Below, in pieces: positions 3,336 to 43,550 of a stretch of 64,000 bases of DNA. Numbering within the stretch: the stretch's first letter is position 1; each line of letters begins with the position of its first letter. The DNA is from Candidatus Heimdallarchaeota archaeon (GTDB lineage: Archaea; Asgardarchaeota; Heimdallarchaeia; Hodarchaeales; Hodarchaeaceae): the NCBI GenBank assembly GCA_011364965.1, contig RDOB01000002.1:32001-96000 (forward strand). Reading direction: 5' to 3'. Made by a program: the position numbers and the translations under genes. The notes beneath the pieces are model-generated. The model was not told where the DNA came from. It made no database searches and saw only the letters and a list, made by a program, of their open reading frames with translations.

Positions 3336-6197
3336 ATGTCTCGTTTCAACACTAAAACTTTGAGTCAGATTATCAAAACATACAGTAACACTAGAGATTT
3401 CTTAGTAAACAAAGAATCAAATATTTCTGATATAAAGATGAAAGTGCAATGTATTGACTTTTTTATGTCAGTAATTTTTTTGATTTGGAGTATGGAAAAA
3501 AACGGAGTTATAAAGAAATTATTTCTTATGTCACAATTAGAAGAATATGATCCAAATCAAAATTTAATGTCTTTTTCCTGTTTTCTTATAGATTCTATTG
3601 AGAAGCTCTTTTTAATAGCAGATTCATCTAATTATTTTACCAAAGAGGAATTTAATATTCTTAAACAAGCAGATCTTCCATTAAGTTGTTTTTATATATC
3701 CAAATCAAAGAAAACAGATGGGATTTTGTCTCAAAATATAGAAATTAATAATATTGAGGCTCTTCCTTTATTTAACCTTTTGGAGTATTTAGATTCATCA
3801 TTTGGAGCGGTCAATGAATATATTTTGGGAAAAATATTCGAATTCTTGTTATCTAAACAAGATCTGAGGAAAAAATTTGGTATCTACTATACGCCTAAGC
3901 AATTTACGGATTATATGTCAAAATTAACGATTGAAAACTATTTTATAGACCAATTAAATATCAAATTTGATATTAAATTAATAAATTTATCTAATTTCTA
4001 TGAGAAATTAGATCTAGATGTGGCAAATTGGGCAATTCATATATTGAAGACATTAAAAATCTTAGATCTGGCGTTAGGAACTGGTCAGTTCCTCATAAGT
4101 GCTATATACCAGCTTTTAGAGATCCATGAGCACGTCAGGAACTTTTACAGAGACAAAGGCTTAATTGAGGTTTTAATACAAGAACTCGAGCTTCAAAATG
4201 ATACCTTCGTTCTTGAAAATTTCCGAAATATCGAAGATGATAACTTTTTTAAGTGTTTAGTGATTAATAAGCTAATAATCCCTCGCAATTTGTATGGAGT
4301 AGACATTAATTTTATAGCTGTACAAATTGCAAAGATTAGATGCTTAATGATAATGGTAAAATTCTTTTCTTCTTCCAAAATGAGAGTTTCACTACTTGCA
4401 AAGATGAATCACAATTTAAAGCAAGGGAATGCATTATTAGGATATCTAGCTTGTCCCAATGATCGTGAAGTATCATATACTTCCTTAAATCAACTGAATT
4501 TAGATTATATAAGCCAATTTGGTATTGAAAGTATTTCGGAAAATGATTTCCCCTTATTTCACTGGTTTTACGAATTTAAGGATGTATTCATTCAAAATAG
4601 TAAATTTCAAGTGATTCTTACCAATCCTCCTTATATAGGAGAGAGTGGGAATAAAAAATTATTTCGTTTACATGCTAAGGCATTATCTGAATACTATGAA
4701 GGGAAAGCAGATCTTTGGTATTATTTCCTGCATAGAAGTATTAATTTATTGTCAGAAAATGGATATTGCACTTTTATTGCTCCTAATTACTGGATTACAG
4801 CGTCGGGAGCATCGTTATTAAGATCTAGGTTAAGTTCTGAGACAACTTTTGTTCGTTATATTAATTTTAATCAAAATTCTGTCTTTAATTCAGCACAGGG
4901 GGTTCATATTAATATTCTAACCGTTAAGAAAGGCATTAACCCTGAACAAAACTTTGAATGCACGGTTTTTAATGATGTTGTAGAAACTAAGGAATTGATT
5001 AAATCTCTCCCTGATCAACAAACATTCATACTTAAGCAGAATGAGTTACTTTTTAATGGATGGGATCCATATTTTCATTTTATCCCTAGAAAATACAGAA
5101 TTATCCTCGAATTTATTATTTCCAAATCTTATAAATTGAAGAATAAAGGATTCTACGTTAAAGAGGGTATTATTACAGGTATGAATACAATTTCGGGAAG
5201 ACAAATATCCCGCTATAATTTATCCCCCGATAAAAAGGGCATTGGAGTGTTTATATTAGATGTAAATCATCCTGAAGATGAAAAGTATATTCAATCTTTG
5301 TCAGAAATAGAAAAATCGATATTGAAACCATTTTATAAAAATTCGGATATAAAAAGATATTATTCAGCATTCAATACTTCAAGAAAGATTCAGTATCTTA
5401 ACAGAAATACCATAAACATAGTCCATTTACCTAGAGTACGTTATTTTCTTGAACAGTTTAAAGAAATCCTCAATGATTCTCTAGATAATCCCCCCTATTT
5501 AAATCGACCCCGAGATCCATTTATGTTTGTATCTCCCAAGATTATTACTCCCCAAAGAAGTAATCTTAATAGATTTGCTTATAATTCTTTAGATTGGTTT
5601 GCTGGACAGGATGTATATTATATTTTAAATGAAAAAAATGATAAAAATGAACTTAAAACTTTACTACTTATTTTAAATTCCAAACTGGCATATTACTGGT
5701 TTTATTGGATGGGAAAAAGAAAAGGGAAACAACTCGAATTATTCAGTGAACCATTGGGATATTTCCCGATTCCTGATTTGAAAGGTAATGATCTCCATAT
5801 ATTGGCTGATTATCTCTTATTTCTCAATTTACTGCATAATGAATCTGAGTCAGCTCGGATTACTAAATTATTAGCTTTTTTTAACAGGTTAGCGGAGCTG
5901 GCTGTTTTCGAGTTCTATTTTTCAGAATTATGTTATAAAAAGGGATTCAGTGAAACAAAGTATCCATTTTCATTCTATATTCAAGAAAATTTAAAAGAAT
6001 TAAATTTTGATGTTATTCTGGAAAATTTCAAAGAGAACTATGATTCAAATAGGAATTTTATTATTCTCTCAGATCAGATTGAAGTGATAGAAGAAGCTTA
6101 CTATAGTTTAAAGACTAATGAAGATATAAAATCCTCCATAAATAAAATTAATACTTTTCCAATGGTAAAAACAATTGCTAAATTTTCGAGCCTCTAA
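3336..6197 (+). CDS. Eco57I/TaqI-like N6-adenine DNA methyltransferase (gamma class) with C-terminal TRD
   Basis: GIYYTP, ILDLALGTGQFL (motif I), LYGVDIN, FHWFYEF, NPPY (motif IV), ADLWYYF, LILNSKL. Confidence 0.85.
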   Translation: MSRFNTKTLSQIIKTYSNTRDFLVNKESNISDIKMKVQCIDFFMSVIFLIWSMEKNGVIKKLFLMSQLEEYDPNQNLMSFSCFLIDSIEKLFLIADSSNYFTKEEFNILKQADLPLSCFYISKSKKTDGILSQNIEINNIEALPLFNLLEYLDSSFGAVNEYILGKIFEFLLSKQDLRKKFGIYYTPKQFTDYMSKLTIENYFIDQLNIKFDIKLINLSNFYEKLDLDVANWAIHILKTLKILDLALGTGQFLISAIYQLLEIHEHVRNFYRDKGLIEVLIQELELQNDTFVLENFRNIEDDNFFKCLVINKLIIPRNLYGVDINFIAVQIAKIRCLMIMVKFFSSSKMRVSLLAKMNHNLKQGNALLGYLACPNDREVSYTSLNQLNLDYISQFGIESISENDFPLFHWFYEFKDVFIQNSKFQVILTNPPYIGESGNKKLFRLHAKALSEYYEGKADLWYYFLHRSINLLSENGYCTFIAPNYWITASGASLLRSRLSSETTFVRYINFNQNSVFNSAQGVHINILTVKKGINPEQNFECTVFNDVVETKELIKSLPDQQTFILKQNELLFNGWDPYFHFIPRKYRIILEFIISKSYKLKNKGFYVKEGIITGMNTISGRQISRYNLSPDKKGIGVFILDVNHPEDEKYIQSLSEIEKSILKPFYKNSDIKRYYSAFNTSRKIQYLNRNTINIVHLPRVRYFLEQFKEILNDSLDNPPYLNRPRDPFMFVSPKIITPQRSNLNRFAYNSLDWFAGQDVYYILNEKNDKNELKTLLLILNSKLAYYWFYWMGKRKGKQLELFSEPLGYFPIPDLKGNDLHILADYLLFLNLLHNESESARITKLLAFFNRLAELAVFEFYFSELCYKKGFSETKYPFSFYIQENLKELNFDVILENFKENYDSNRNFIILSDQIEVIEEAYYSLKTNEDIKSSINKINTFPMVKTIAKFSSL

Positions 6198-6961
6198 ACA
6201 TCTCTCTTTCCTCCTTTAAGCTGTGAAATATGATCAACTACAGATGTCAAAAATTCTCCAGCTTTCGCTTCTATACGGATATCTGCTAGCATATCTAGAT
6301 CCGTTGGGCCGGAATTAACAATAATAAAAAGTGCACCTGATCTTTGTGCAATAACAGGTATTTCTGCTGCAGGAAAAACACTCAAAGTTGACCCGATTGC
6401 AAGAATAACATCACTTCTAATTGCATGGCTTCTCGCAAGTTCCATTTCTCTTTCAGGCATGGGATCATTGAAGTTGACAACTGAAGAAATTATTCTACCT
6501 GAACAGTACGGACATTTTGGTTGATTCCCCTTTATTTTTTCAGTTCGATACCCTTTCCCATGTTCTTGATCATCCCACCCAATCTCTCCCTTTTGAAGTC
6601 GTTCATCACAATCCATACATTTCATAAGTTCAAAATTACCATGCAATTCAGCTAAAAGTTCTTGCGGGATTCCTGACTTTAAATGGAGATTATCAACATT
6701 TTGGGATATGAGATATTTTAGAATACCCATTTTGTAAAGATCCACGATTGCAAAATGAGCTGTATTTGGTTCGATTAGTTCCATAGGTTGTTTTAGAGGT
6801 TTAGGTTTCAGCCCTTTCTCACGTAATGTCCATACACCTTCTGGTCCTCTATAATCTGGCAATCCTGATTCAGTTGATATGCCAGCTCCCGTAAAGATTA
6901 CAAGATAACTAGAAGAGTTTAAAATTTTAGCAATTTTCTGGATTTCTAAATTCAAATTCAT
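6194..6961 (-). CDS. NAD-dependent protein deacylase, Sir2 family (class IV, SIRT6/7-like)
   Basis: GAGISTESGLPDYRG, SQNVDNLH, ELHGN, CxxC...CxxC Zn site, GSTLSVFPAA, IVN. Confidence 0.92.
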   Translation of the reverse strand: MNLNLEIQKIAKILNSSSYLVIFTGAGISTESGLPDYRGPEGVWTLREKGLKPKPLKQPMELIEPNTAHFAIVDLYKMGILKYLISQNVDNLHLKSGIPQELLAELHGNFELMKCMDCDERLQKGEIGWDDQEHGKGYRTEKIKGNQPKCPYCSGRIISSVVNFNDPMPEREMELARSHAIRSDVILAIGSTLSVFPAAEIPVIAQRSGALFIIVNSGPTDLDMLADIRIEAKAGEFLTSVVDHISQLKGGKRDV

Positions 6962-8484: not shown

Positions 8485-9378
8485 TTAAGAATTAATAAGC
8501 TTTTGAAGTCTTTTTACATAAGTCGAATTTTCAACTTTTTCTTTAAATTCCTGAGCATTTAAAAACCACCATACGTTCCACAATGCTCTATTTTTCCATC
8601 CTAAAGTTCCCCTTAATGTCAATTGCTCATAATTCTCAATAAATGGAGGTGAGTAACATTCAAATAATCTCTGATTCAAACCCTTTCCAAATTTCTTTTT
8701 ATAGAGCGCTTCATGAATATAAACAGATCCTTCGGGTGTATAACAGGAACACATAGCTGCATTTCTCCTCCATCCAATCCAGTCAATGGAATAAAGGTGG
8801 TTAAGAAAAGCAATTTGATGATATGGGCTACCTATTCCAAATCCATGGAAAAAGCAGTCTGAGCTGCTTTTTAAGATTCCCAACCACTCTGCAATTTCAT
8901 ATACACTACCTTTCTGGTTGATTTTTAAAGCCGGGACGACTCCTCCAAGCCCAATATATTTTTCGGATTTATAGTAATTCAAATTATCCGGATAATGTAC
9001 TACAGGCAAAATATTCATAGCAAATTTTCGATTTAATAGCTCCCAATTCCTCTTAGATTTCCTCGGATTACCAATTGAATCAAGATTAACTACTATATCT
9101 TCGGAACCTAGATTAATTCTCTTGAGAAATTGAACGTATTTAGAGATAGAAATTTCAACTCCAGAATTGAAAGCCGAATAAGCACCTGAATCAACAATAA
9201 TCGAACCATCCCAAGAAAAAAATTCCTTTAAACCTGACTGGATAATTTCAGATGTCTTTTTTCTGAAATTCCAGAAAGAAAATATAATTCCGACATCCAA
9301 TTTTTTCATTTTTTCCATGATTTTGACTTCTTCTAACCAAGGATACAGTCCTGGAACAATTCCTAAGTACAACTTCAT
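8485..9378 (-). CDS. TGT/DpdA-like guanine transglycosylase-fold protein A
   Basis: IIVDSGAYS, VNLDSIG, LPVVH, IGLGG, HGFG and SIDW appear in the order of the TGT catalytic barrel; no PUA domain. Confidence 0.7.
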   Translation of the reverse strand: MKLYLGIVPGLYPWLEEVKIMEKMKKLDVGIIFSFWNFRKKTSEIIQSGLKEFFSWDGSIIVDSGAYSAFNSGVEISISKYVQFLKRINLGSEDIVVNLDSIGNPRKSKRNWELLNRKFAMNILPVVHYPDNLNYYKSEKYIGLGGVVPALKINQKGSVYEIAEWLGILKSSSDCFFHGFGIGSPYHQIAFLNHLYSIDWIGWRRNAAMCSCYTPEGSVYIHEALYKKKFGKGLNQRLFECYSPPFIENYEQLTLRGTLGWKNRALWNVWWFLNAQEFKEKVENSTYVKRLQKLINS

Positions 9379-9526
9379 TTTTATTCACAATAGTTGGTTA
9401 AAATTAATTCTAACCTAATTTCTTTGATTTGGATTTTTATTTGCAGGAAAATCCTAAGAATTCAAAAATAATTCAATATATGGTTATTTTATTCTTACTA
9501 AAAAGCTTAAAGAGGTATAATTTTCC

Positions 9527-9985
9527 ATGAATTCAAATAAAGTATTGATTATTCTTTCTTGTGGAAAGAAGAAGTCAGAAAAATTATCTCAAGGAAAACT
9601 AAAGGCCTCTCAAGCGTATATTGGGCCAATGTTTCAGGTAATAAACAAAGCGAAGAGAGAAAGCAGATGGTCTGAGGATTTTTTTTTGGGTATTATATCA
9701 GCAAAATATGGATTTCTGAGAGAGAATCAGGAAATCGAATTTTACGACAAAAAAATGTCAAAAAAAAGAGCTTATGAGTTGAGAGATCAAGTGATTAATT
9801 CAATTCAGACTTGGAATTCAGAGGAGCAGTTTTCATTGATATATATTCTCATGGGGAAGATATATTTGTCCAGTGTGGAAAAATTGAAAGATTTTATAGA
9901 TACCAAAGTAATTATAGAGCCAATGGAAGGTTTAGGAATAGCTCAAAGAAAATTGCTCACCTTTTTGAAAAATCAAAACAAATGA
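9527..9985 (+). CDS. DUF6884-like (YaaA-related) protein
   Basis: ILSCGKKK...ASQAYIGPMF...IISAKYGFL...IEFYDKKMS...GKIY...GLG pattern. Confidence 0.7.
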   Translation: MNSNKVLIILSCGKKKSEKLSQGKLKASQAYIGPMFQVINKAKRESRWSEDFFLGIISAKYGFLRENQEIEFYDKKMSKKRAYELRDQVINSIQTWNSEEQFSLIYILMGKIYLSSVEKLKDFIDTKVIIEPMEGLGIAQRKLLTFLKNQNK

Positions 9986-10024
9986 AGCAATTCAGCAAAA
10001 GAAATTACATTAGAGGATTTCTAG

Positions 10025-11041
10025 ATGATCTTTGCAATAGGCACCCCAGTAAATGCACATTTTCGTCCTTGGACATATGATTGGGCGCTAAAACCTGATG
10101 CTTTGATGATTTCAGCCATTGACTTCTTATCCAGCCCAAGGACGTATAAAAAGTTAAAGAGTAAGGGAATACATGATCTTTTGGCATGGGATGGCTCCAT
10201 TATTTGTGATTCAGGTGCATTTTCTGCTTTAAATCGGAAATCTGCTGTTACCATACAGTTAGAGGATTTATATGCATTATATGAGGAAATTAATAAACAA
10301 GATCCAAATATTCTTAAAATTACTTTAGATTTTCCTGACGATAGAATTATTGAAAATTATAAGAAGCTTTATCCTTTAGAAATAGAGCCTGTTGTACCTT
10401 TCAATAAAATTGAATTGATTGATTCGATATCGAGAATAACGGATGATTTAGATTGGTTATTTATTGGACGTCTTGTTCCATTAATGAGACAAGGTGGTGA
10501 TCACATTTCCAGACTCTCTCTGATATTTGATGTTTTTCGTGAGAAACTTAAAGAGAGAGCATTTACTCACAAAGTGAAACTTTGGGCTCTTGGAGTGGGT
10601 GCTCCAAGCATTCTCCCGTTTATTCGGAGTTTAGTTGAGGGATGTGATTCTTCCCGTTGGAGAGTTACGGGATCAAATATGATACTTTTACCAGCAGGTG
10701 GAGAACGAGGTGTTGGAAATCGTACAAAATGGCGGGGTACTCATCATCGAATTGATGATCAGAATGAACGACATCTGGTGATTAAAATTCTGAAAGATCT
10801 TGATACTCTCTCTGGAGGTTTTGAGAATATTGATCATTCTTTAACATATAATCAGCAACCTAAGCTGATAAAGGGAAGTTTTGAGATAAATTTGCCATCT
10901 ATTGGAGAGCTAATTACAAAAATACGCGAACACTCTGATCTTGTGACAGTTTACGAATTAGAACTCCTGTTAAGAACTTCTGGAAATTTAAGACTCATAT
11001 TTAATTATTGGTCAGCTTTAAATTTTAGTTCAACGGATTAG
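10025..11041 (+). CDS. TGT/DpdA-like guanine transglycosylase-fold protein B
   Basis: LMISA, WDGSIICDSGAFS, ITLDFP, EPVVP, FIGRLVP, WALGVG, GCDSSRW; shares WDGSIIxDSGA with protein A. Confidence 0.7.
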   Translation: MIFAIGTPVNAHFRPWTYDWALKPDALMISAIDFLSSPRTYKKLKSKGIHDLLAWDGSIICDSGAFSALNRKSAVTIQLEDLYALYEEINKQDPNILKITLDFPDDRIIENYKKLYPLEIEPVVPFNKIELIDSISRITDDLDWLFIGRLVPLMRQGGDHISRLSLIFDVFREKLKERAFTHKVKLWALGVGAPSILPFIRSLVEGCDSSRWRVTGSNMILLPAGGERGVGNRTKWRGTHHRIDDQNERHLVIKILKDLDTLSGGFENIDHSLTYNQQPKLIKGSFEINLPSIGELITKIREHSDLVTVYELELLLRTSGNLRLIFNYWSALNFSSTD

Positions 11042-11050
11042 TAATGAGTA

Positions 11051-13423
11051 ATGAACAGTCATAATTTATTAATTTGTCAACCATTGAATTCTGCTTTCGC
11101 GTTTCTTACTGAGATGAAAAAATTTAACTTCAAGTTAATACTTTGGGATTATCGATTCATATTTTTTCCAACTCCAAATCTTATCATAGAATCTCGTATT
11201 GAAGCCAATAATCCTCCAAACTTTAGGTTGATGGAAAATATAGATTTATTTTTATTTGATTTTGAAGAAAATCTCTCTTATTTGAAGCAGAACCTTAAAA
11301 ATTTTGGATTTATCGCTATTTTAATCAATGGTACACTTAAATTTAAAATTAAATCGATTTTGGACAAGGTTCTAGGTATTAGCACATTCCTAAATGAAAT
11401 TCTACTCGATTCACCATATCAGTTATCACATGACTCAAATAGACAAATCTTTGAAAGAACAGATTATATATTACTATATGGGAATCCAAGTAATCAAAGA
11501 GTCAATCCTGTATATAATGACAGGTTAAGTGGAGGATATTGGCATTCTTTTGTTTCAAAAGGTCAAGGATCAGCAAAAATATTTGTAAGAGATGGAAAGA
11601 AGATTGAGATTGCACCTCCACCTGGAACACACTGGAAGTTAAAACAGGAGACAATTCTGAAGTTCTGCCAAGAAGGATTAATCCGTTTCAATTCTAGTGG
11701 AAACCCTGAATACTGGGTAAAAGAGAAAAGAGGACAGATCATCGATACTAATTGGTTAGATATTGACTCTTTTGACACCCAAGGAAATATGATATGCAAT
11801 TCGAAATTTCTATATAAAAGACTCTTCAATCTAGTCTTAAAAGAAGGTGATCAATATTTAAATATCTTCTCGTCTGAAAATACATCTATTATATTAGCAA
11901 ATTCAAATAAAAATCCCTGGGTGAAAATTTACTCATCTGAAGTTCATTTGAAACCTGAAATCAATGAATTAAAAGGAAAAGGATTAACTTTTGAAGTATA
12001 TCAAGATAATCCATTCTCTATCCCTTCTTCAAATCACCACCATAAGATTTCTTCCCCTCCCCATGAAATAAACGCGGATGAAAAGGATATAGAAAATCCT
12101 ACTTTGTCAATCCATGAGTTATATAGCTCTCAGGATCCTGAAACTGTTGATTTATCTAAAGGTAAATGGATTAACAGTCTAATATTAGGAGATTGTTTTA
12201 TTGCTTTAACTTTGATTAAGAAACTTTTTAATGATAGAATTAAGTTGATATATATCGATCCTCCATATTTTACTGGGATTAATGAGATTATCACAATTCC
12301 AATTACACCTGAGAGTCATCACTTAATCGAAAAATTTGCATATCAAAATACAATTAACTCTACAGAACCGATTCAATTTTTTAAAAAATGGTTCAAAGTA
12401 AGATTGGATAAAATGAAAGAGCTCTTAGCGAATGATGGGCATATATTTGTTAGATATGACTATCATTTCGGGCATTATGCCAAATTAGTTCTTGATGAGG
12501 TGTTTGGGGTAGAAAATTTTGTCATTGAGTTATTTGTTAGGAGAATGAAGAAAAACCTCTCAAAGAAACAAGAGTACCATCAAAATCATTTAATTGTTCA
12601 TACTGATTCTCTATTTATCTATCGTAAGTCTAAAGATGCAGTATTAGATTTGAGAAAAATTACTAAAAGACATAAAAATGCTCAAGATATCGCTGAAAGA
12701 GAATTACATAATGATAATCTATGGATTGACATTACTGGATATGAAAAAGTGAAAAAAAGTCTCTATCCAACAGAGAATTCAGAAGTACTACTCAAGAGAC
12801 TTATTGAGATATCAACTGATCCTGGAGATATAATAGCTGACTTTTTTAGTGGATCTGGTACTACATTAGCTGTATCAGAAAAGTTAAAACGAAAATGGAT
12901 AGGTATTGACATTGGCTTGATGTCTATCAACGAAACAAAAAGAAGAATATTGAATCTACCGAATTTTCAGCCATTTGAGATATCAAGAGTAGTAGATAAA
13001 AAGAGGAGTTACAATATTGATTCAAGCGTTCCTGAATTTTTTCTTGGGATAGGAGGCAAAAAAAGGTTAGAAATTGATAAAAATGGGTTAGGGGTAACAA
13101 TAGAACTCCAACGGGATTATTCTGGTATTACTTTATATATAGTTCATTTTTCATCCCAGAAGATAGAGAATTTTCAACCTCTTACCACATTTCGATATTA
13201 TATTGACACTTGGGTACTTGATTGGTCTTATAATGGCTTTCAAATTAGGAGCACTTGGTTCTCGACTAGAAAAACAAAGGGGAAAAGGTTAATAAAACCT
13301 GTTGAAACATTTTGCAGATTTGAAGTTTTTAATAGAACTAAAATAGATTTAGCTTTGCTAATAACCGATATTTTTGGATTGGAATTAAATTATAAGTTTA
13401 AAATTATTTTGTTAAAACACTGA
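11051..13423 (+). CDS. Tandem beta-class (Type III Mod-like) DNA methyltransferase: degenerate N-terminal copy plus intact C-terminal copy
   Basis: C-half has IYIDPPY, LDEVFGVENF, YPTENSEVLLKRLI, DFFSGSGTT and WIGID. N-half has collinear degenerate equivalents plus a PPPGTHWK TRD-like segment. Confidence 0.85.
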   Translation: MNSHNLLICQPLNSAFAFLTEMKKFNFKLILWDYRFIFFPTPNLIIESRIEANNPPNFRLMENIDLFLFDFEENLSYLKQNLKNFGFIAILINGTLKFKIKSILDKVLGISTFLNEILLDSPYQLSHDSNRQIFERTDYILLYGNPSNQRVNPVYNDRLSGGYWHSFVSKGQGSAKIFVRDGKKIEIAPPPGTHWKLKQETILKFCQEGLIRFNSSGNPEYWVKEKRGQIIDTNWLDIDSFDTQGNMICNSKFLYKRLFNLVLKEGDQYLNIFSSENTSIILANSNKNPWVKIYSSEVHLKPEINELKGKGLTFEVYQDNPFSIPSSNHHHKISSPPHEINADEKDIENPTLSIHELYSSQDPETVDLSKGKWINSLILGDCFIALTLIKKLFNDRIKLIYIDPPYFTGINEIITIPITPESHHLIEKFAYQNTINSTEPIQFFKKWFKVRLDKMKELLANDGHIFVRYDYHFGHYAKLVLDEVFGVENFVIELFVRRMKKNLSKKQEYHQNHLIVHTDSLFIYRKSKDAVLDLRKITKRHKNAQDIAERELHNDNLWIDITGYEKVKKSLYPTENSEVLLKRLIEISTDPGDIIADFFSGSGTTLAVSEKLKRKWIGIDIGLMSINETKRRILNLPNFQPFEISRVVDKKRSYNIDSSVPEFFLGIGGKKRLEIDKNGLGVTIELQRDYSGITLYIVHFSSQKIENFQPLTTFRYYIDTWVLDWSYNGFQIRSTWFSTRKTKGKRLIKPVETFCRFEVFNRTKIDLALLITDIFGLELNYKFKIILLKH

Positions 13424-13427
13424 TGTA

Positions 13428-13913
13428 ATGATATTTCAGGGAAGTAGAAATAGAAAGTTGTTTAATGGATTTCATACAAAGGTGAGCGATATGACAGTTT
13501 ATCAATCTAAAATTCAATTAAAAGAGACTTTTGAGACAGAAATTGTGAATATTACAACTAACATACAACAAGAAGTTGATAAATCCGGCATCAAGAATGG
13601 CATAGCCACAATTTTTAATGTAGGATCGACTGGAGGTATTTTAACTTTGGAATATGAACCAGGATTGTTAAAAGATATTCCTGCATATTTAGAACGTACG
13701 ATTCCGAAAAGTAGCATAAAATATGAACATGAGAAAACTTGGCATGATGACAATGGTCATTCTCATGTACGAGCATCAATTATCGGTCCCTCTTTAACTG
13801 TACCAATAACACAGGGAAAATTGATTCATGGAACATGGCAACAAGTAGCATTTATGGAATTAGATACCCGTCCTCGTCGAAGAGGGTTACATATTACTAT
13901 TATTGGAGAATGA
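13428..13913 (+). CDS. yjbQ: YjbQ/UPF0047 family protein (true start probably ATG at 13491)
   Basis: GSTGGI...EYEPGL.KD...YEHE...NGHSHVRASIIGPS...GTWQQV.F.ELD.RPR. Confidence 0.9.
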   Translation: MIFQGSRNRKLFNGFHTKVSDMTVYQSKIQLKETFETEIVNITTNIQQEVDKSGIKNGIATIFNVGSTGGILTLEYEPGLLKDIPAYLERTIPKSSIKYEHEKTWHDDNGHSHVRASIIGPSLTVPITQGKLIHGTWQQVAFMELDTRPRRRGLHITIIGE

Positions 13914-14108
13914 TCCCATTATAGAATTTTTTAGATATTGGGGATAATATGATTGCTGATAAATCAGTAGATATTTTTATCTAGTTAGAACAATAAAAAA
14001 TCTCAATTTACTCAAGAATATAAAGAAGAATTTAATGAATTTTACTTTTCATTTAGACAATTTACCAAGCATTAAACGTAAATAAGTACTTGTAATGGAG
14101 TTTAAATC

Positions 14109-14558
14109 TTGACAAGTGCATTCGAGGAAGCATATAGTTATCTAAATAGCTCAATTCGTACCTATGTTAATGCAACCTCTACTATAGATAAATTATTTGC
14201 AATTAAACTTATAGTTCTTTGTATGATAGTTGCAACTGACGCTCTTATGGAAAGCGTCGAAAAAACTACAGACACCCCATTTCATGGACATCTCGAAGAA
14301 TCCAGCTTTTTCCTCCCTATTGCAGCATACGAACAAAGGATGGCTGATCTGAGTCATCTTGAGGATACTGGTATTATTCCTGAGAAATATCAATTTTCAC
14401 GACGCTTGAGAAGAGCTTTAGACTTGTTGAAAGTTGCGTATGGAAATTATGGTCTTCGTTCCTTATTAGCAATAAACATTAAGGAGTTTATTAATGATTC
14501 ACAGTTTTTTGTACTTGATATCGAGATTCTTGTAGAGTCTCTAACTCAGGACAATTAA
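14109..14558 (+). CDS. Helical hypothetical protein, possibly HEPN/PaREP1-like
   Basis: 149-aa all-alpha pattern; GGAG SD-like sequence before TTG; no clear RxxxxH motif. Confidence 0.45.
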   Translation: MTSAFEEAYSYLNSSIRTYVNATSTIDKLFAIKLIVLCMIVATDALMESVEKTTDTPFHGHLEESSFFLPIAAYEQRMADLSHLEDTGIIPEKYQFSRRLRRALDLLKVAYGNYGLRSLLAINIKEFINDSQFFVLDIEILVESLTQDN

Positions 14559-39086: not shown

Positions 39087-39887
39087 TTAAGGCTTTTGAA
39101 ATATTAAGCAGTAATGATGATGTATGTTGGGGACGAATGAATAGGGCATTCCATACGGCCGAAGAACTTTTTGGTTCTGTAACCAAATTTTTTCTCCTAA
39201 AAATTTAAATTCACTCCTGAGACGCAAAGCTAATTCAAAAGCCAGTGGAAATAGTTCTCCTTTCTCCCTGACATTCTGGACAAAGATAATAAGATGGCCT
39301 TTATCAACTAAGAGTTCTTTTATTTGGAAAAAGATCTGAACCAATTCGCAAAGGAAATTCTCTCTCTCTGAGATTAATCCAAGATCTTTTGGATTTTTTC
39401 CATATTGAAGGTCTAAACCTTTCTTTTTTCTTGCTTTTTGATTATAGTCTTTGCGTTTTGTTAGGATTCGCCAATAGGGAGGAGAAGTTATACATAGAGA
39501 GAATTTTTCCCCCTTGTGTATTAATTCATAAATAATCTCCCGAGCATCCCCTTGATATATTTCTGCGGACGTACGAGATTTAGCTGTATCCACATATTTT
39601 TCGTATAATTCTATACCCACTCCTTCTCGCTGACATTGATCACATGCTACCATTGTTGAACCAGTTCCCAAAAAAGGATCAATAACTTTCTCACCGGGTT
39701 TAGTAAAAAACTCAATGAATTCCTGAATCATGGCTGGTGGGAATGAAGCAGGGTGTAGTTCAATTTCATGTGAGATTTCACTGGCTTTTCCATCAGCAAT
39801 GAACCATGATTTTGTAAATCGTATCCATTCTTTCCCAGTTAAAGCATTAAGCTTATTTCTTGGGTCAACTTGTGAATTATTCTCCAT
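39087..39887 (-). CDS. DNA methyltransferase, N4-cytosine/N6-adenine type (alpha order, SPPY)
   Basis: LNALTGKEW, HPASFP, DPFLGTGST, GIEL, GDAR, TSPPYW. Confidence 0.85.
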   Translation of the reverse strand: MENNSQVDPRNKLNALTGKEWIRFTKSWFIADGKASEISHEIELHPASFPPAMIQEFIEFFTKPGEKVIDPFLGTGSTMVACDQCQREGVGIELYEKYVDTAKSRTSAEIYQGDAREIIYELIHKGEKFSLCITSPPYWRILTKRKDYNQKARKKKGLDLQYGKNPKDLGLISERENFLCELVQIFFQIKELLVDKGHLIIFVQNVREKGELFPLAFELALRLRSEFKFLGEKIWLQNQKVLRPYGMPYSFVPNIHHHYCLIFQKP

Positions 39888-39960
39888 ATTAAACCATTAA
39901 ATTGGGATTAGAGACTATTTAAAAATATGTTAACTTACAAGTTCAATCCGTTCATAAATT

Positions 39961-40617
39961 TTGAGTGGAGACTCTAAACTTATGGAGCTTGAAAGTATTA
40001 TTTTTGATGTGGATGGAACGATTGTTAATAATTCCAATATAATAATTCGCTTATTTAAGGTGCTTGTTAAACGTTATACAGGTAAAGATATGTCAACACA
40101 GGATGTTGTCTCATTATGGGGTCCTCCAGGAAATGAAATATTCAAACGAGTGTTCCCATCTGAAGTTCTCGGTCAAGCCTGGCAAGAGTTTCTAGTTGAA
40201 TATAGAAAATCTCATCCTACTGCTGGTTACTTCACAGTAGATGATTTCAATATAATGAAATCTAAAGTAAAGTATTTAGCAATATTCACAGGGAAAAGTA
40301 GAGAGACTCTTAAGATTAGTTTAGAGACTCTTGGTTTTAATGATATTTTCGACTATATTATGACTGGAAATGATGTTGAACGCTCAAAACCTTATCCTGA
40401 TGCTCTTTTTCAGATTATCGGCGTTTTAAACTTAAATAAAACCAATACGATTTTTATTGGGGATAGTCCTCTCGATATCATTGCTGGGAAGAGCGCAGGG
40501 ATTAAAACGGCCGCAGCGACTTGGGGAAGTGTTGAGTTAGACAATCTACTTGCAACAAATCCTGATTTTGTCTTTAAGAGTCCTAATGATTTTAAGGAGT
40601 TTATTCTAAACGAATAA
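39961..40617 (+). CDS. HAD-superfamily hydrolase (phosphoglycolate phosphatase/PPaX-like)
   Basis: FDVDGT, FTGK, KPYPD, IGDSPLDI.AGK.AG. Confidence 0.9.
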   Translation: MSGDSKLMELESIIFDVDGTIVNNSNIIIRLFKVLVKRYTGKDMSTQDVVSLWGPPGNEIFKRVFPSEVLGQAWQEFLVEYRKSHPTAGYFTVDDFNIMKSKVKYLAIFTGKSRETLKISLETLGFNDIFDYIMTGNDVERSKPYPDALFQIIGVLNLNKTNTIFIGDSPLDIIAGKSAGIKTAAATWGSVELDNLLATNPDFVFKSPNDFKEFILNE

Positions 40618-40629
40618 AGGAATGATTCG

Positions 40630-42789
40630 ATGCATCTGAGATTGATTGAGAAAAACATTCCTATTAAAGAAATTAGTGAGATCTCAATACCTGAGAGAAG
40701 TAGTTACAAACCAATATATCAGATTTCTAAATGGTTTGCTCGTCGTTCCTCATCAACTTTTAGGGCTTTACTACTCGCAGCTACTTTAGCTCCAGATCAA
40801 AATTTGATGGAGTATTTCTATAAAGAAAATTACATTCCGGAAAAGGTTGTATTAGATCCATTTATGGGTGGAGGGACAACTATTGTTGAAGGTTTGCGAC
40901 TAGGGATGAAGTGTATTGGAATTGATATTAATCCCGTAGCATGGTTTATTACTAAGACTGAAGTTGAGGCCATTTTAGAAGAAGACCTTCAATCTTTAAT
41001 CGCGCATTGTGAAGCAAATATAAAACCAGACATTCAAAAGTGGTACAAAACTCAATGTCCTATATGTGAAAGAGAAGCAGAAATAATCTATATACATTGG
41101 GTAAAACAACTACCTTGCTATATATGCAGTTCAATGGTTACGCTTTTTCGTACTTATATCCTAAATCAAAAAGGTAAATTTGCAACAGTTTTATGTCCCT
41201 CTTGCCATTCGGTTTTTTCATCTCTCCTCGAGTCGGATAGAGTTAGCTGTTCACGTTGTGAATACAGATTTAATCCCAGAATTGGCAACCGCGTGAGTAG
41301 AAGCTCTTACAAATGTTCCAACTGTGGAACAACAAGTCATATATTAAAATCGATTCGAAAATATAATAAAATTCTACCTTCTCAAATGTACGCTATCGAA
41401 GGATATTGTTCTCACTGTGCGAGAGAAAAGGATGTAAAATCCCCTCTTAAAAAGTCTAATTATAAATTCATTAAGCAGATTGACGCTTCAGATGAAGAAT
41501 TATTTTATTCAGCAGAGAAATACTGGGAAAAAACTAAGTCTACTTTACTCTGGCCCAAAAATACCATTCCTGAGGGAACAATAACAAAAACCTTGAAGAA
41601 TCATCATTATAGATTTTGGTTTGATTTATTTAATTCTCGTCAGTTAATTTGTCTTTCGATAATCTTCAATTATATTAAATCTGTAGAAGATGTTTTGAAA
41701 CAAGAATTGTTGTTAGCTGCGTTCATAAATTTACTTAACCATAATAATGTATTTACACGTTATTCTCCTGGAGGTCATAAAGTAGAAGGAATATTTGCAC
41801 GACATGATTTTCACCCTTTATCGACTTTTGCAGAAAACAATGTGTGGGGGAGTAAGTATGGACGAGGAACTTGGATTAAATGCATGAACCGACTTGTTAC
41901 GGGGAAAAGGTATAATTTCCAACCTTATAGCCATAAACGTTTTAATAAAGATGGTTCATTGAGAGTTGAGAAAGTATTTACCGGTAGTATTGATGGACAT
42001 GTCTCCTTAAATCCTCTCAATAATTTTTCCTCCTCCAAGGATTACAATTCTATTCTAATGTGCAGAGATGCAGAAAAAATTAATGATATCCCCCAATTGG
42101 TTGATTTAATAATTACAGATCCTCCCTATGCAGATAATGTCAACTATTCGGAGCTTTCTGATTTCTTTTATGCTTGGTTACGGTTAATTCTAAAAGATCG
42201 GTATCCTTTTTTTTCTAGTAAAGAAACACCAAAGGAAAGCGAAGCTATTAAAGATAAGAATAGGACAATAGATTACTATAAAAAGCTAGTTGGAATTTTT
42301 AGTGCAGTAAAAACTAAATTAAAGCCAGATGGATTAATCATCTTTACATTTCATCATTCTAATCGGCTAGTTTGGCTTCAATTGATAAAATCTCTTTTTG
42401 AAGCGAAAATTTATATTCTCAAAACTTATCCCATTCCTAGTGAAGCGAGAAATGTCTTAAATATTCAAAATAAGAAAGCAATTGCTTTTGATTTAATAAT
42501 TGTTGCGAAATCAAGAGATAAATTTATATCAAAAAAAATAGATCTCATTGATTTTAAAACAAAGTTTATTTCAGAAGGTAAATTCAGGTTTAAAACTCTT
42601 GAAAAAGCAAATATTACAATCAAAGGGTACGATCATCTCGTGGTCATTTATGGGGTACTAATGGAATTGTTATCGGAATACGTCGTACAAGACGAAGTAT
42701 CAACCCCTCTGACGATAGATGAGGTTTGGACTCATACATCAAATCTAATTTTAACTGATTTAATGCAAGATAAAGCTGAGTCAAAATGA
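40630..42789 (+). CDS. DUF1156-type adenine-specific DNA methyltransferase with multiple Zn ribbons
   Basis: KWFARR, DPFMGGGT, DINPVA, several CxxC pairs, LFNSRQL, TDPPYADNVNYSELSDFFYAWL, FTFHHS. Confidence 0.88.
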   Translation: MHLRLIEKNIPIKEISEISIPERSSYKPIYQISKWFARRSSSTFRALLLAATLAPDQNLMEYFYKENYIPEKVVLDPFMGGGTTIVEGLRLGMKCIGIDINPVAWFITKTEVEAILEEDLQSLIAHCEANIKPDIQKWYKTQCPICEREAEIIYIHWVKQLPCYICSSMVTLFRTYILNQKGKFATVLCPSCHSVFSSLLESDRVSCSRCEYRFNPRIGNRVSRSSYKCSNCGTTSHILKSIRKYNKILPSQMYAIEGYCSHCAREKDVKSPLKKSNYKFIKQIDASDEELFYSAEKYWEKTKSTLLWPKNTIPEGTITKTLKNHHYRFWFDLFNSRQLICLSIIFNYIKSVEDVLKQELLLAAFINLLNHNNVFTRYSPGGHKVEGIFARHDFHPLSTFAENNVWGSKYGRGTWIKCMNRLVTGKRYNFQPYSHKRFNKDGSLRVEKVFTGSIDGHVSLNPLNNFSSSKDYNSILMCRDAEKINDIPQLVDLIITDPPYADNVNYSELSDFFYAWLRLILKDRYPFFSSKETPKESEAIKDKNRTIDYYKKLVGIFSAVKTKLKPDGLIIFTFHHSNRLVWLQLIKSLFEAKIYILKTYPIPSEARNVLNIQNKKAIAFDLIIVAKSRDKFISKKIDLIDFKTKFISEGKFRFKTLEKANITIKGYDHLVVIYGVLMELLSEYVVQDEVSTPLTIDEVWTHTSNLILTDLMQDKAESK

Positions 42790-43550
42790 GTGAAGATTCA
42801 TCATATGAGCTAGTTATTGGGGATGTTATTAAGCAACTTCCATTAAAAGCACAAAAGAGAAAATTTAATTTGTTTATCGCTGATCCGCCCTTTGGTATTT
42901 CTTTTAATAAATCAAGTCACGAATATGGTGCGAAGGAATATAATCTTTATCAGGATGAATTTACACCTGAGGGATATTTTGAGTTCTCTAAGCAATGGAT
43001 TGAGATTTGCTATAATTCATTGGTGAAAAATGGAAGTCTCTATATTATATCAGGATGGACTAATTTACAATATATCCTGAATGCTCTTGCTTTATCAAAA
43101 TTTTACCTGTTAAACCATGCGATATGGTATTTCTCTTGGGGAGTGTACACTAAAAGGAGATTTGCAACAAGTCATTATCATATTTTGTTACTGATAAAAA
43201 ATAAAAAAAATTATCAGTTCTATAAACAGAAGAAATATGATGAAGACGTTTTTTTTTGGCCCGAATATAATCGAGGGAATGACCCACATCGGATTAAGGG
43301 GCATCCATGCCAATTGCCTATCGCGCTATTAGAAAAACTTATCCTTACCTCTAGTTCTCCTGGAGATTTGGTAGGAGACATATTTTCTGGGAGTGGAGGA
43401 ACAATTCTAGCTGCTAGGAAGACAGATAGAGATGTAATTGGATTTGAGATAAGAGAGGATTATAAAGACATAATTTATCAAAAAGCTAAGTTTGGAAAAT
43501 CCCTTTCACAAGAAAACTCCGTTACATTAGAAAGTTATCTCCCTAAATGA
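42786..43550 (+). CDS. Beta-class site-specific DNA methyltransferase
   Basis: IADPPFG, HPCQLP..LLEKLI, GDLVGDIFSGSGGT, GFEI; ATGA overlap with the DUF1156 gene. Confidence 0.88.
   Translation: MSEDSSYELVIGDVIKQLPLKAQKRKFNLFIADPPFGISFNKSSHEYGAKEYNLYQDEFTPEGYFEFSKQWIEICYNSLVKNGSLYIISGWTNLQYILNALALSKFYLLNHAIWYFSWGVYTKRRFATSHYHILLLIKNKKNYQFYKQKKYDEDVFFWPEYNRGNDPHRIKGHPCQLPIALLEKLILTSSSPGDLVGDIFSGSGGTILAARKTDRDVIGFEIREDYKDIIYQKAKFGKSLSQENSVTLESYLPK

What the first reader, a model, noticed from the sequence alone, without database searches (positions are those of the whole stretch)
11051..13423. Single-chain pseudo-heterodimeric methyltransferase: dead 'reader' copy fused to active 'writer' copy
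Seen: two collinear beta-class MTase copies. Copy 1 (about aa 1-310) has KLILWDYRF in place of KLIYIDPPY and NIFSSENTS in place of DFFSGSGTT, so it lacks the catalytic and SAM motifs. It retains a long Mod-type TRD (GGYWHSFVSKGQG...PPPGTHWK...GLIRF...P). Copy 2 (about aa 372-635) has intact DPPY and FxGxG but only about 30 aa where the TRD should be. Known: in the EcoP15I Mod2 dimer one subunit recognises DNA and the other methylates, and eukaryotic METTL3-METTL14 is an active/inactive beta-class pair. Inference: that division of labour is fixed here in one polypeptide, with no Res subunit nearby.
Basis: partly seen in the sequence, partly recalled or inferred. Interest (0 to 1): 0.82.

Follow-up and report, generated by a model that had tools for sequence, protein, structure and literature searches.

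The report
Fused dead-plus-live DNA methyltransferase
One Asgard-archaeal gene joins a catalytically dead copy of a restriction-system DNA methylase, which keeps the DNA-reading insert, to a live copy that has lost it; relatives encode the same two copies as separate genes flanking a restriction enzyme, so a job normally shared by two identical subunits has been split by evolution and then joined into one chain.

Summary
Observation confirmed; interpretation supported in silico. ORF 11051-13423(+) encodes 790 aa with two collinear beta-class (Type III Mod-like) methyltransferase domains (hhalign E 8e-25).

- **N-half (aa 1-320):** no DPPY or FxGxG in any of 46 homologues. It still folds as a Mod (Z 21). 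Its ~85-aa insert at the TRD position is the best conserved part of the protein (65% pairwise identity).
- **C-half (aa 372-645):** keeps DPPY and FSGSG but has only ~30 aa at that position. A PKD-like tail follows.
- **Packing:** the halves are predicted to pack through equivalent surfaces (ipSAE 0.84, best control 0.14).

New here: relatives carry the two copies as separate genes flanking a Type III Res, in the order dead Mod, Res, live Mod (three loci). A canonical single Mod-Res relative also exists. On a tree, N-halves group with dead Mods and C-halves with live Mods (support 100 each).

So the window protein is a Res-less fusion of a heteromeric Mod pair. It is inherited in a conserved gene block across Hodarchaeales-type genomes. 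Activity, target and specificity are untested.

The scan had already noted orthologues of this architecture in other genomes. I rate it a new variant of a known kind, interest about 0.66.

The parts
11051..13423 (+). Whole gene: 790-aa fused pseudo-heterodimeric Mod-type methyltransferase (P0001)
   Evidence: Continuous ORF. About 55 full-length homologues at 38-57% identity, named Hodarchaeota, Heimdallarchaeota and other Asgard groups.
11051..12010 (+). N-half, aa 1-320: beta-class MTase fold without catalytic or SAM motifs ('dead' copy)
   Evidence: hhalign against the C-half E 8e-25. Profile against PDB Mods E 9e-13. Model pLDDT 89; VIA Z 21.6, 21.4 and 21.1 to 7dsu, 6k0w and 4zcf.
11132..11158 (+). 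Degenerate motif IV, KLILWDYRF (aa 28-36), aligned to KLIYIDPPY of the C-half
   Evidence: None of the 46 homologues has (D/N/S)PP(Y/F/W) here; the consensus is LIFLDLS.
11495..11746 (+). Insert of about 85 aa at the TRD position (aa 149-232): SGGYWH..S..G, PP.GxHWK.Q, P.YWV; small beta-rich module
   Evidence: Absent from the C-half in hhalign. About 30 invariant residues. 65.5% mean pairwise identity, the highest of any region. The PPxGxxW..Q..I segment aligns to 6k0w Mod residues 317-345. The same insert occurs in separate dead Mods and in active relatives.
11861..11887 (+). Degenerate motif I, NIFSSENTS (aa 271-279), aligned to DFFSGSGTT
12011..12163 (+). Linker, aa 321-371, variable and predicted disordered
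   Evidence: pLDDT 31-56. 15.9% mean pairwise identity.
12164..12985 (+). C-half, aa 372-645: intact beta-class amino-MTase ('live' copy). DPPY at aa 403-406 (12257-12268); DFFSGSGTT at aa 597-605 (12839-12865); YPTENSE at aa 572-578
   Evidence: PF01555 E 2.5e-41. VIA Z 24.8 to 6k0w_B and 23.9 to 4zcf_B. 61.7% pairwise identity. 52% identical to the separate live Mod P0332.
12623..12715 (+). Short basic segment of about 30 aa (aa 525-555) where the TRD would be
   Evidence: hhalign gap against the N-half insert. It is about 30 aa shorter than in ~500-aa single-domain relatives.
12986..13423 (+). C-terminal beta-sandwich, aa 646-790, weakly PKD/Ig-like (stop codon included)
   Evidence: 9 of 28 family tails hit PKD_4 or PKD (best E 2.8e-5). 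The ColH PKD domain in the PDB scores E 0.003. All-beta in the model. Shared with the separate Mods and with ~500-aa relatives.
9527..11041 (+). Upstream co-directional genes: DUF6884 (9527-9985) and TGT/DpdA-like 'TGTb' (10025-11041). Context only; membership in one system not shown
   Evidence: PF21818 E 1.5e-13. PADLOC PDC-M57A E 1e-13 and DpdC E 0.0034. TGT motif hits at E 1e-4 to 0.06. The nearest protein-atlas clusters are viral, some with DpdA or TGT. This gene order is kept in 17 of 17 loci that include upstream sequence.
13428..13913 (+). Downstream YjbQ/UPF0047 gene, 4 bp after the MTase stop. Context only
   Evidence: PF01894 E 6e-33. Conserved downstream in 18 loci.

Best explanation
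The gene encodes a single-chain pseudo-heterodimer derived from the two Mod paralogues of a heteromeric Type III-like restriction-modification system.

Domain layout:
- **N-half (aa 1-320):** a Mod-type beta-class fold that has lost motif IV (DPPY) and motif I (FxGxG). It keeps a strictly conserved ~85-aa insert at the TRD position.
- **Linker:** about 50 residues, disordered.
- **C-half (aa 372-645):** an intact amino-methyltransferase whose TRD is cut down to ~30 aa.
- **Tail:** a PKD-like beta-sandwich.

Proposed mechanism: the two halves pack through the same surfaces that beta-class homodimers use. The dead half positions or reads the DNA through its insert next to the live half's active site. 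The live half flips and methylates the target base, most likely adenine N6, on one strand.

There is no Res partner, and the segment that Res-linked relatives carry between MTase and tail is missing. The protein is therefore an orphan methylase, inherited vertically in Hodarchaeales-type Asgard archaea, and probably writes one conserved mark.

Shown: homology and fold of both halves, the motif states, the conservation pattern, the split-gene relatives and the phylogeny.

For: 1. **Two homologous Mod-like domains.** hhalign E 8e-25. Fold Z is 21-22 for the N-half and 23-25 for the C-half against the Type III Mods 7dsu, 6k0w and 4zcf.

2. **Complementary degeneration across 46 homologues.** The N-half never has DPPY or FxGxG. 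The C-half always has them (D403, P404, P405, G601, S602 and T604 are invariant). The insert is only in the N-half.

3. **Purifying selection on the insert.** Insert 65.5% identity, C-half 61.7%, N-core 37.5%, linker 15.9%.

4. **Predicted packing.**
   - Full-length AF2 model: pTM 0.84, pLDDT 82.
   - ESMFold2 on the two halves: ipSAE 0.84 in all three runs, best of 3 controls 0.14. That mark was reached by 58 of 80 solved complexes and 2 of 110 mismatched pairs. The runs agree in at least 85% of contacts, and partner pLDDT is at least 84. My own alignments were used, so these counts hold only roughly, and beta-class dimers are solved, so the pass may come from memory.
   - The interface uses equivalent elements of both halves: N 94-118 with C 471-495, N 132-137 with C 513-518, N 230-236 with C 553-559. 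It includes reciprocal pairs, for example N98-C478 and N101-C475.

5. **Split relatives.** Three loci carry dead Mod (~590 aa, same insert), then Res (ResIII helicase plus RE_endonuc, ~860 aa), then live Mod (~600-633 aa, DPPF, FxGSGTT, short TRD, PTENSE). These are L011, L012 and L013. The window N-half is 40% identical to dead Mod P0068 (E 3e-49). The C-half is 52% identical to live Mod P0332 (E 1e-96).

6. **Canonical relative.** P0215 is active, has the insert, and is followed by Res with no second Mod (L014).

7. **Tree.** N-halves plus dead Mods form one clade and C-halves plus live Mods another, each with SH-aLRT 100. Forcing all fused halves into one clade costs 184 lnL, p-AU 5e-6 (the group was named after the tree was seen).

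8. **Published mechanism.** In EcoP15I one Mod reads the DNA and the other methylates, and a single Mod cannot do both (PMC4490356). Dimer formation is conserved among beta-class MTases (PMC6787082).

9. **Orphan status and persistence.** Full-length matches occur in 8 of 9 sampled genomes of the genus-level group, with a contig-truncated C-terminal match in the ninth, and in the own genome. The gene block is the same in 17-18 species-level loci. There is no Res nearby or in the own genome.
Against: - There are no biochemical or methylome data. Activity, substrate and the monomeric state are all untested.
- The packing evidence comes from structure predictors that have seen beta-class dimers. 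No coordinates were available, so the model could not be superposed on the EcoP15I Mod2-DNA complex.
- The insert is conserved not only in the fused family but also in dead and active Mods of different systems. Classical Type III TRDs are hypervariable. The insert may therefore be a general DNA clamp or a structural element rather than the sequence reader.
- Small beta-class enzymes with short TRDs, such as CcrM, read DNA with loops of the MTase domain (PMC6787082). The C-half might contribute most of the specificity itself.
- The whole neighbourhood, including TFIIB and HflX, is syntenic within one lineage. Persistence shows selection for the gene but not what it acts on.
Confidence: 0.64

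Rival explanations
1. The N-half is a structural scaffold or folding partner for the live half, as the N-domain is in RsmC or METTL14 in its complex. It is not the sequence reader. In this view DNA recognition comes from loops of the C-half and the PKD-like tail, and the conserved insert serves stability, unspecific DNA clamping or partner docking.
For: The insert framework is shared by enzymes of different systems, including active ones. That fits a general module better than a specificity domain. CcrM reads DNA with MTase-domain loops and a C-terminal domain (PMC6787082). In RsmC one of two tandem homologous domains is needed for folding of the other (PMC1934991). The base of the insert (aa 149-153 and 230-236) lies in the predicted interface.
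Against: The insert is more conserved than the N-half core that makes most of the interface (65.5% against 37.5%). It is rich in invariant aromatic and basic residues (W164, H165, K170, H194, W195, K196, W222), as nucleic-acid-binding surfaces are. The live partners have lost exactly this segment, in both the fused and the split forms.
Confidence: 0.18
2. The methylase is one working part of a base-exchange DNA-modification module, together with the neighbouring DUF6884 (YaaA/DpdC-like) protein and the two TGT/DpdA-like proteins. For example, it might mark or read DNA that carries a 7-deazaguanine-type base.
For: The genes are tightly packed and co-directional, with gaps of 39, 9 and 4 bp. The order DUF6884, TGTb, MTase, YjbQ is kept in 17 of 17 loci. 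TGTb orthologues are found in the same 9 of 9 genomes, on the same contigs. The DUF6884 gene hits PADLOC PDC-M57A (E 1e-13) and DpdC (E 0.0034). DpdC is DUF328 (PMC5699537) and DUF6884 is related to it (PMC11701544). The nearest atlas clusters to TGTb include viral DpdA and TGT clusters. A QueT gene sits beside a distant fused homologue (L015).
Against: All linked loci belong to one lineage in which TFIIB and HflX are equally syntenic. In several genomes 1.5-3 kb of other genes separate TGTb from the MTase. Distant fused homologues (L004, L009, L010) have no TGT or DUF6884 neighbours. The split relatives are plain Type III operons. The TGT likeness of TGTb rests on a ~30-aa motif match, and its profile hits no solved structure. 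The known dPreQ1 methylase DpdM belongs to an unrelated family, DUF3109 (PMC10516641).
Confidence: 0.12
3. The enzyme methylates RNA (rRNA or tRNA) rather than DNA.
For: An invariant recognition insert, vertical inheritance and the absence of a restriction partner all fit a fixed cellular target. Some beta-class enzymes (M.EcoGII) act on RNA as well (cited in PMC6787082). RsmC shows the same tandem logic in an rRNA methylase (PMC1934991).
Against: The closest relatives by sequence, fold and phylogeny are Mod subunits in operons with a Type III Res helicase-nuclease. The distribution is limited to one archaeal order plus scattered relatives, which is unlike core RNA-modification enzymes.
Confidence: 0.05
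4. The gene is a decaying remnant of a restriction-modification system and has no function.
For: Res has been lost and one domain has lost its catalytic motifs.
Against: The frame is intact in all 46 aligned homologues. There are more than 100 invariant positions, many of them in the dead half. The gene is present in every sampled genome of the lineage.
Confidence: 0.01

Closest known systems
EcoP15I Mod2 and other Type III Mod homodimers (PDB 4zcf, 6k0w, 7dsu)
   Same: Both halves have their best sequence and fold matches here. They share the beta-class motif order and an insert at the TRD position. The published division of labour, in which one protomer reads and the other methylates (PMC4490356), is what the fused protein appears to fix genetically.
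   Different: The known Mods are two identical, fully active subunits that work with Res. Here there is one chain with complementary losses (catalysis in one half, TRD in the other), no Res, no Mod NTD/CTD arrangement, and a PKD-like tail.
METTL3-METTL14 and the ciliate MTA1c/AMT1-AMT7 complexes (MT-A70 family)
   Same: An active subunit is paired with an inactive paralogue to form an obligate asymmetric writer of N6-methyladenine.
   Different: These are separate polypeptides of a different family. Fold Z is only about 12-13, against 21-25 for Mods, and Pfam gives no MT-A70 hit. Published trees argue against an Asgard origin of MT-A70 (PMC12695648). The relation is analogy, not membership.
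RsmC (16S rRNA m2G1207 methyltransferase)
   Same: Two homologous MTase domains are duplicated in tandem in one polypeptide and subfunctionalised into substrate binding and catalysis (PMC1934991).
   Different: RsmC is an RNA enzyme of another MTase class. It has no separate-gene intermediate and no restriction-system ancestry.
PRMT7
   Same: Two tandem modules fold into a homodimer-like structure and only one is active (PMC8399567).
   Different: PRMT7 is a protein arginine methyltransferase, and its active module is the N-terminal one.
CcrM and small beta-class DNA MTases (M.MboIIA, M.RsrI, M.BceJIV)
   Same: The C-half resembles them in its short TRD region and motif I. CcrM is an orphan, dimeric enzyme in which the monomers contribute unevenly and a C-terminal domain binds DNA (PMC6787082).
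   Different: These are homodimers of active subunits, with no dead paralogue.

Membership tests
Beta-class amino-methyltransferases (Pfam PF01555 N6_N4_Mtase) | Motif order IV-VIII, then the TRD position, then X and I-III, on a Rossmann-like fold | tested here: met
   Both halves are collinear with each other and with the family. Fold Z is 18-25 to solved members.
Beta-class amino-methyltransferases (Pfam PF01555 N6_N4_Mtase) | Catalytic motif IV (D/N/S)PP(Y/F/W) and SAM motif I FxGxG | tested here: met
   Met for the C-half only: DPPY aa 403-406 and FSGSG aa 599-603, invariant in the family. Not met for the N-half in any of 46 homologues. The protein is a member through its C-half; the N-half is a degenerate member.
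Type III R-M Mod subunit | Closest relatives are Mod subunits | tested here: met
   Profiles of both halves hit 6k0w, 4zcf and 7dsu first. The best PADLOC hit is MTase_III, E 5.5e-53. Nearest separate-gene relatives sit beside Res.
Type III R-M Mod subunit | Encoded with, and acting with, a Res helicase-nuclease | tested here: not met
   No ResIII gene within 10 kb. None was found in the own genome (87% complete) with a related Res as query. None lies next to fused homologues in L001, L002, L004, L009, L010 or L015. I therefore file it as an orphan Mod derivative, not as a Type III system.
Type III R-M Mod subunit | A TRD inserted between motif VIII and motif X that reads the DNA sequence | tested here: inconclusive
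   An insert is present in the N-half and part of it aligns to 6k0w residues 317-345. 295 of 320 residues align to 4zcf_A. The insert is a conserved framework rather than a variable TRD, and DNA reading was not testable.
Type III R-M Mod subunit | Dimer through the MTase domains | tested here: inconclusive
   Models support a pseudo-symmetric intramolecular dimer: pTM 0.84; ipSAE 0.84 against best control 0.14. Predictions can pass from memory of solved dimers, and no superposition on 4zcf was possible.
MT-A70 (METTL3/METTL14, MTA1/MTA9) | Sequence and fold membership in MT-A70 | tested here: not met
   No MT-A70 Pfam hit at E up to 1. Fold Z is 12-13, well below the Mod matches.
Dpd-type 7-deazaguanine DNA modification system | DpdA transglycosylase with DpdB and DpdC partners and a preQ0 supply | tested here: inconclusive
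   The neighbours give only weak hits: TGT motif E 1e-4 to 0.06, DpdC E 0.0034, and atlas neighbours that include DpdA clusters. No PADLOC DpdA hit. No structure match by sequence. DpdB and preQ0 genes were not searched for.

The most novel reading that the evidence does not exclude
Hodarchaeales, the Asgard order that others propose as nearest to eukaryotes (my own knowledge, not tested here), maintain a dedicated single-chain reader-writer adenine methylase as a core chromosomal gene. It would write one fixed epigenetic mark, possibly working together with the adjacent DpdA-like and YaaA-like proteins as a new base-exchange-plus-methylation system. The series canonical Mod-Res, then dead Mod-Res-live Mod, then fused orphan would then be a natural record of how a defence enzyme became an asymmetric epigenetic writer, paralleling the rise of METTL3-METTL14-type pairs.
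Probability: 0.15. Interest if true: 0.85.

Novelty: new variant of a known kind. Interest (0 to 1): 0.66.

Why it matters
The EcoP15I structure proposed that in beta-class DNA methylases one subunit reads the DNA and the other writes, but identical subunits make this hard to prove. Here the two roles appear separated by evolution, twice: as two different genes around a Res, and as one fused chain without Res. Either form allows clean separation-of-function experiments, such as mutating or deleting one role without touching the other.

The series also documents a route from a restriction system to a persistent orphan methylase, in the archaeal lineage most discussed in eukaryote origins. Type III systems with a heteromeric Mod in which one subunit is dead did not turn up in the literature I could search. 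The general principle of tandem duplication with complementary degeneration is already known from RsmC and PRMT7.

Tried and rejected
- **C-terminal tail.** The protein-atlas feature search gave nothing usable. Only weak PKD hits came from Pfam and the PDB.
- **TGTb.** A family profile against PDB sequences gave no hit, so its TGT/DpdA fold stays unconfirmed.
- **Partner gene in distant fused homologues.** The genes downstream in L004, L009 and L010 are unrelated to each other (weakly PP2C-like in two, PNP_UDP_1 in the third). I dropped the idea of a conserved partner there.
- **Link to the dPreQ1 methylase DpdM.** DpdM is DUF3109, not PF01555 (PMC10516641), so there is no link.
- **Stand-alone N-half proteins.** Hits of about 270-345 aa with degenerate motifs (P0197, P0201, P0205) lie on contigs of 1.3-2.1 kb and may be truncated. 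I did not use them.
- **The ~500-aa relatives in another Asgard family (L005-L008).** These are single active MTase plus PKD tail, with no TGT, DUF6884 or dead-copy neighbour.
- **Literature precedent.** Searches for a fused or heteromeric dead/live beta-class DNA MTase found none in the held library. That library is incomplete, and REBASE could not be queried.
- **Frequency of the split system.** A search of 201 phylum genomes with dead Mod P0068 found the dead domain only in the fused proteins. The split system is therefore rare in that sample.
Full report
**What is there**

The window has 30-37% G+C, carries archaeal genes such as TFIIB, and holds no RNA genes. ORF 11051-13423(+) encodes a 790-aa protein, P0001.

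Pfam finds one strong N6_N4_Mtase domain at aa 397-623 (E 2.5e-41). When the N-terminal 340 residues are scanned alone, it finds only a sub-threshold second hit (E 0.0016).

**Two homologous halves**

- BLASTP of half against half gives E 6e-6 over the motif I region.
- About 55 full-length homologues (38-57% identity) exist, all in Asgard MAGs. Record titles name mostly Hodarchaeota, Hodarchaeum or Heimdallarchaeota.
- Profiles of 43 N-halves and 46 C-halves align with probability 99.6%, E 8e-25, over 260 columns. The only large difference is an N-half insertion between motif VIII and motif X.
- The N-half profile hits the solved Type III Mods 6k0w (E 9e-13), 7dsu (E 7e-11) and 4zcf (E 1.3e-7). 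Its PPxGxHWK.Q..I segment aligns to 6k0w residues 317-345.
- The C-half profile hits the same Mods (E 8e-28 and 1e-23).
- Modelled alone, the N-half (pLDDT 89) matches 7dsu_B at Z 21.6 (rmsd 2.6, 229 aligned), 6k0w_B at Z 21.4 and 4zcf_A at Z 21.1 (295 of 320 aligned).
- In the full model the C-half matches 6k0w_B at Z 24.8 and 4zcf_B at Z 23.9.
- MT-A70 proteins score only Z 12-13.

**Complementary degeneration under selection**

No homologue has (D/N/S)PP(Y/F/W) or FxGxG in the N-half. The consensus there is LIFLDLS and DLFLDLSxxxGxSL. A distant subgroup (P0055, P0057, P0058) keeps remnants such as DLPVY and FSGLGE. In the C-half the catalytic residues D403, P404, P405, G601, S602 and T604 are invariant.

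Mean pairwise identity by region:

| Region | Residues | Identity |
|---|---|---|
| N-core | 1-148 | 37.5% |
| Insert | 149-250 | 65.5% |
| N motif I region | 251-320 | 28.9% |
| Linker | 321-371 | 15.9% |
| C-half MTase | 372-640 | 61.7% |
| Tail | 641-790 | 30.8% |

So the dead domain's core is relaxed, but its insert is as constrained as the catalytic domain. The tail is a beta-sandwich with weak PKD likeness.

**Packing of the halves**

The full-length AF2 model is compact (pTM 0.84).

ESMFold2 on the two halves as separate chains gave ipSAE 0.84 in all three runs, with 0.14 for the best of three controls. That mark was reached by 58 of 80 solved complexes and 2 of 110 mismatched pairs. 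Contact agreement between runs is at least 85%, and partner pLDDT is at least 84. My own alignments were used, so these counts hold only roughly.

Using the hhalign register, the interface residues of the two chains are equivalent positions: N 94-118 with C 471-495, N 132-137 with C 513-518, and N 230-236 with C 553-559. There are reciprocal pairs, so the predicted contact is a pseudo-dyad. This is the expected result if the arrangement copies the conserved beta-class dimer (PMC6787082).

Because such dimers are solved, the pass may reflect memory. I could not superpose the model on 4ZCF.

**Relatives that explain the origin**

A search of 1.84 billion representative proteins with the N-half profile, followed by reading the hits, gave three further kinds of relative.

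1. *Dead Mods (~590 aa): P0068, P0200/P0330, P0202 and P0203.* They have a degenerate motif IV (DLPF, ELPY, DLPA, NLTH), the same insert, a middle segment and the PKD-like tail. P0068, P0202 and P0330 each lie in an operon of dead Mod, then Res (ResIII helicase plus RE_endonuc, ~860 aa), then a second Mod. This was seen in three loci, L011, L012 and L013. The context of P0203 was not examined. The second Mod (P0331, P0332 and the L013 gene) is active, with DPPF and FxGSGTT. It has the same short TRD region and the same PTENSE motif as the window's C-half.
2. *P0215 (646 aa).* It is active, has the insert, and is followed by Res with no second Mod (L014).
3. *Small active MTases (~335 aa) with the insert framework* (P0210, P0212, P0213, P0245).

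The window's N-half is 40% identical to P0068 (E 3e-49). Its C-half is 52% identical to P0332 (E 1e-96).

In a 47-row maximum-likelihood tree, N-halves plus dead Mods form one clade and C-halves plus live Mods another, each with SH-aLRT 100. The dead clade sits on a long stem (1.01), and its tips are 2-3 times longer. Forcing all fused halves together costs 184 log-likelihood units (p-AU 5e-6; the group was chosen after seeing the tree).

The Res-linked forms, both canonical and split, share a ~115-140-aa middle segment that the fused proteins lack. The most economical order is therefore canonical Mod-Res, then duplication and subfunctionalisation around Res, then fusion with loss of Res and of that segment. 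The root, and so the direction, is not proven.

**Genomic setting**

- In a sample of 201 genomes of the phylum, full-length copies occur only in the window's genus-level group. Eight of nine sampled genomes have a full-length match. The ninth (G062) matches only aa 377-785, in a 417-aa frame that starts 60 bases from a contig end. The own genome has one copy.
- In 17 of 17 species-level loci with upstream sequence, the order is DUF6884, TGT-like 'TGTb', MTase, YjbQ, a 149-aa gene, TFIIB (reverse strand; not found in 2 of the 17), then HflX where the fetched locus reached that far. A second TGT-like gene often lies upstream on the other strand.
- In several loci 1.5-3 kb of other genes lie between TGTb and the MTase.
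- Neighbours are better conserved than the MTase: TFIIB 78%, HflX 55% and TGTb 58% identity, against 41% for the MTase.
- The whole block is syntenic within one lineage, so the neighbourhood alone does not show functional coupling.
- Distant fused homologues have other neighbours, one of them QueT.
- No Res was found nearby or in the genome.

**Reading**

The best explanation is an orphan, single-chain reader-writer methylase that fixes the EcoP15I division of labour (PMC4490356). Confidence is about 0.64.

The main rival, at about 0.18, is that the dead half is mainly a scaffold and that the insert is a general DNA clamp, because its framework is shared by enzymes of different systems. A role within a DpdA-like module (about 0.12) and an RNA target (about 0.05) are not excluded.

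**Comparison and novelty**

- It is a member of PF01555 through its C-half.
- It is a Mod derivative by sequence, fold and phylogeny.
- It is not a Type III system, because Res is missing.
- It is not MT-A70.

The principle of tandem duplication with one dead module is known from RsmC (PMC1934991) and PRMT7 (PMC8399567). Active/inactive pairs are known from METTL3-METTL14 and MTA1c. I found no description of a dead/live beta-class Mod pair, split or fused, but the library is incomplete and REBASE was not available.

Other readers of this scan noted orthologues of the fused form in other genomes.

Noticed in passing
L011:7001-13276, L012:1892-8036, L013:5382-11136: These are Type III-like operons with two different Mod genes flanking Res. 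The first Mod has degenerate catalytic motifs but keeps the TRD-position insert. The second is active and lacks the insert. I found no description of such heteromeric-Mod Type III systems.
   Followed up: partly
window 8485-11041: Two divergent TGT/DpdA-like paralogues (8485-9378 on the reverse strand and 10025-11041 on the forward strand) flank a DUF6884 (YaaA/DpdC-like; PADLOC PDC-M57A E 1e-13) gene. The TGTb family is lineage-specific and annotated only as hypothetical. Its fold was not confirmed.
   Followed up: partly
window 3336-6961: A Type IIG Eco57I/MmeI-like restriction-methylase (953 aa) overlaps by 4 bp, stop to stop, a convergent SIR2-family gene (255 aa) on the other strand. This is a possible defence pair, 4 kb upstream of the finding.
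   Followed up: no
window 39087-43550: A cluster of three PF01555 genes. The 719-aa one (40630-42789) shows the motif I part of the profile about 1.2 kb before the motif IV part, that is, a permuted or two-module order. Two similar ~700-725-aa genes lie elsewhere on the same contig (G000:C9 about 410900-416700).
   Followed up: no
L005-L008 (for example L006:5945-7453): A ~500-aa single active MTase with the same PKD-like tail but no dead copy is found in another Asgard family (f13), in a conserved context of its own. Family f13 had MTase matches in 35 of 40 sampled genomes; many of those are ~370-aa stand-alone MTases and only some are this ~500-aa form, which was not counted separately. This form keeps TQKPE where the fused family has TENSE.
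   Followed up: partly
L015:1456-8250: The distant fused homologue P0059 sits between a QueT (queuosine-precursor transporter) gene, a 349-aa MTase, a dCTP deaminase/dUTPase gene and a 733-aa two-hit PF01555 protein. This looks like a nucleic-acid modification island.
   Followed up: no
window 13428-14558: YjbQ/UPF0047 (4 bp after the MTase stop) and an unannotated 149-aa gene are kept downstream of the MTase in all 18 Hodarchaeales-type loci. Their relation to the MTase is unknown.
   Followed up: partly
window 11051; alignment A1: The MTase evolves faster than its neighbours (41% identity against 55-78%), and the window's copy lacks about 25 N-terminal residues present in most homologues.
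   Followed up: no
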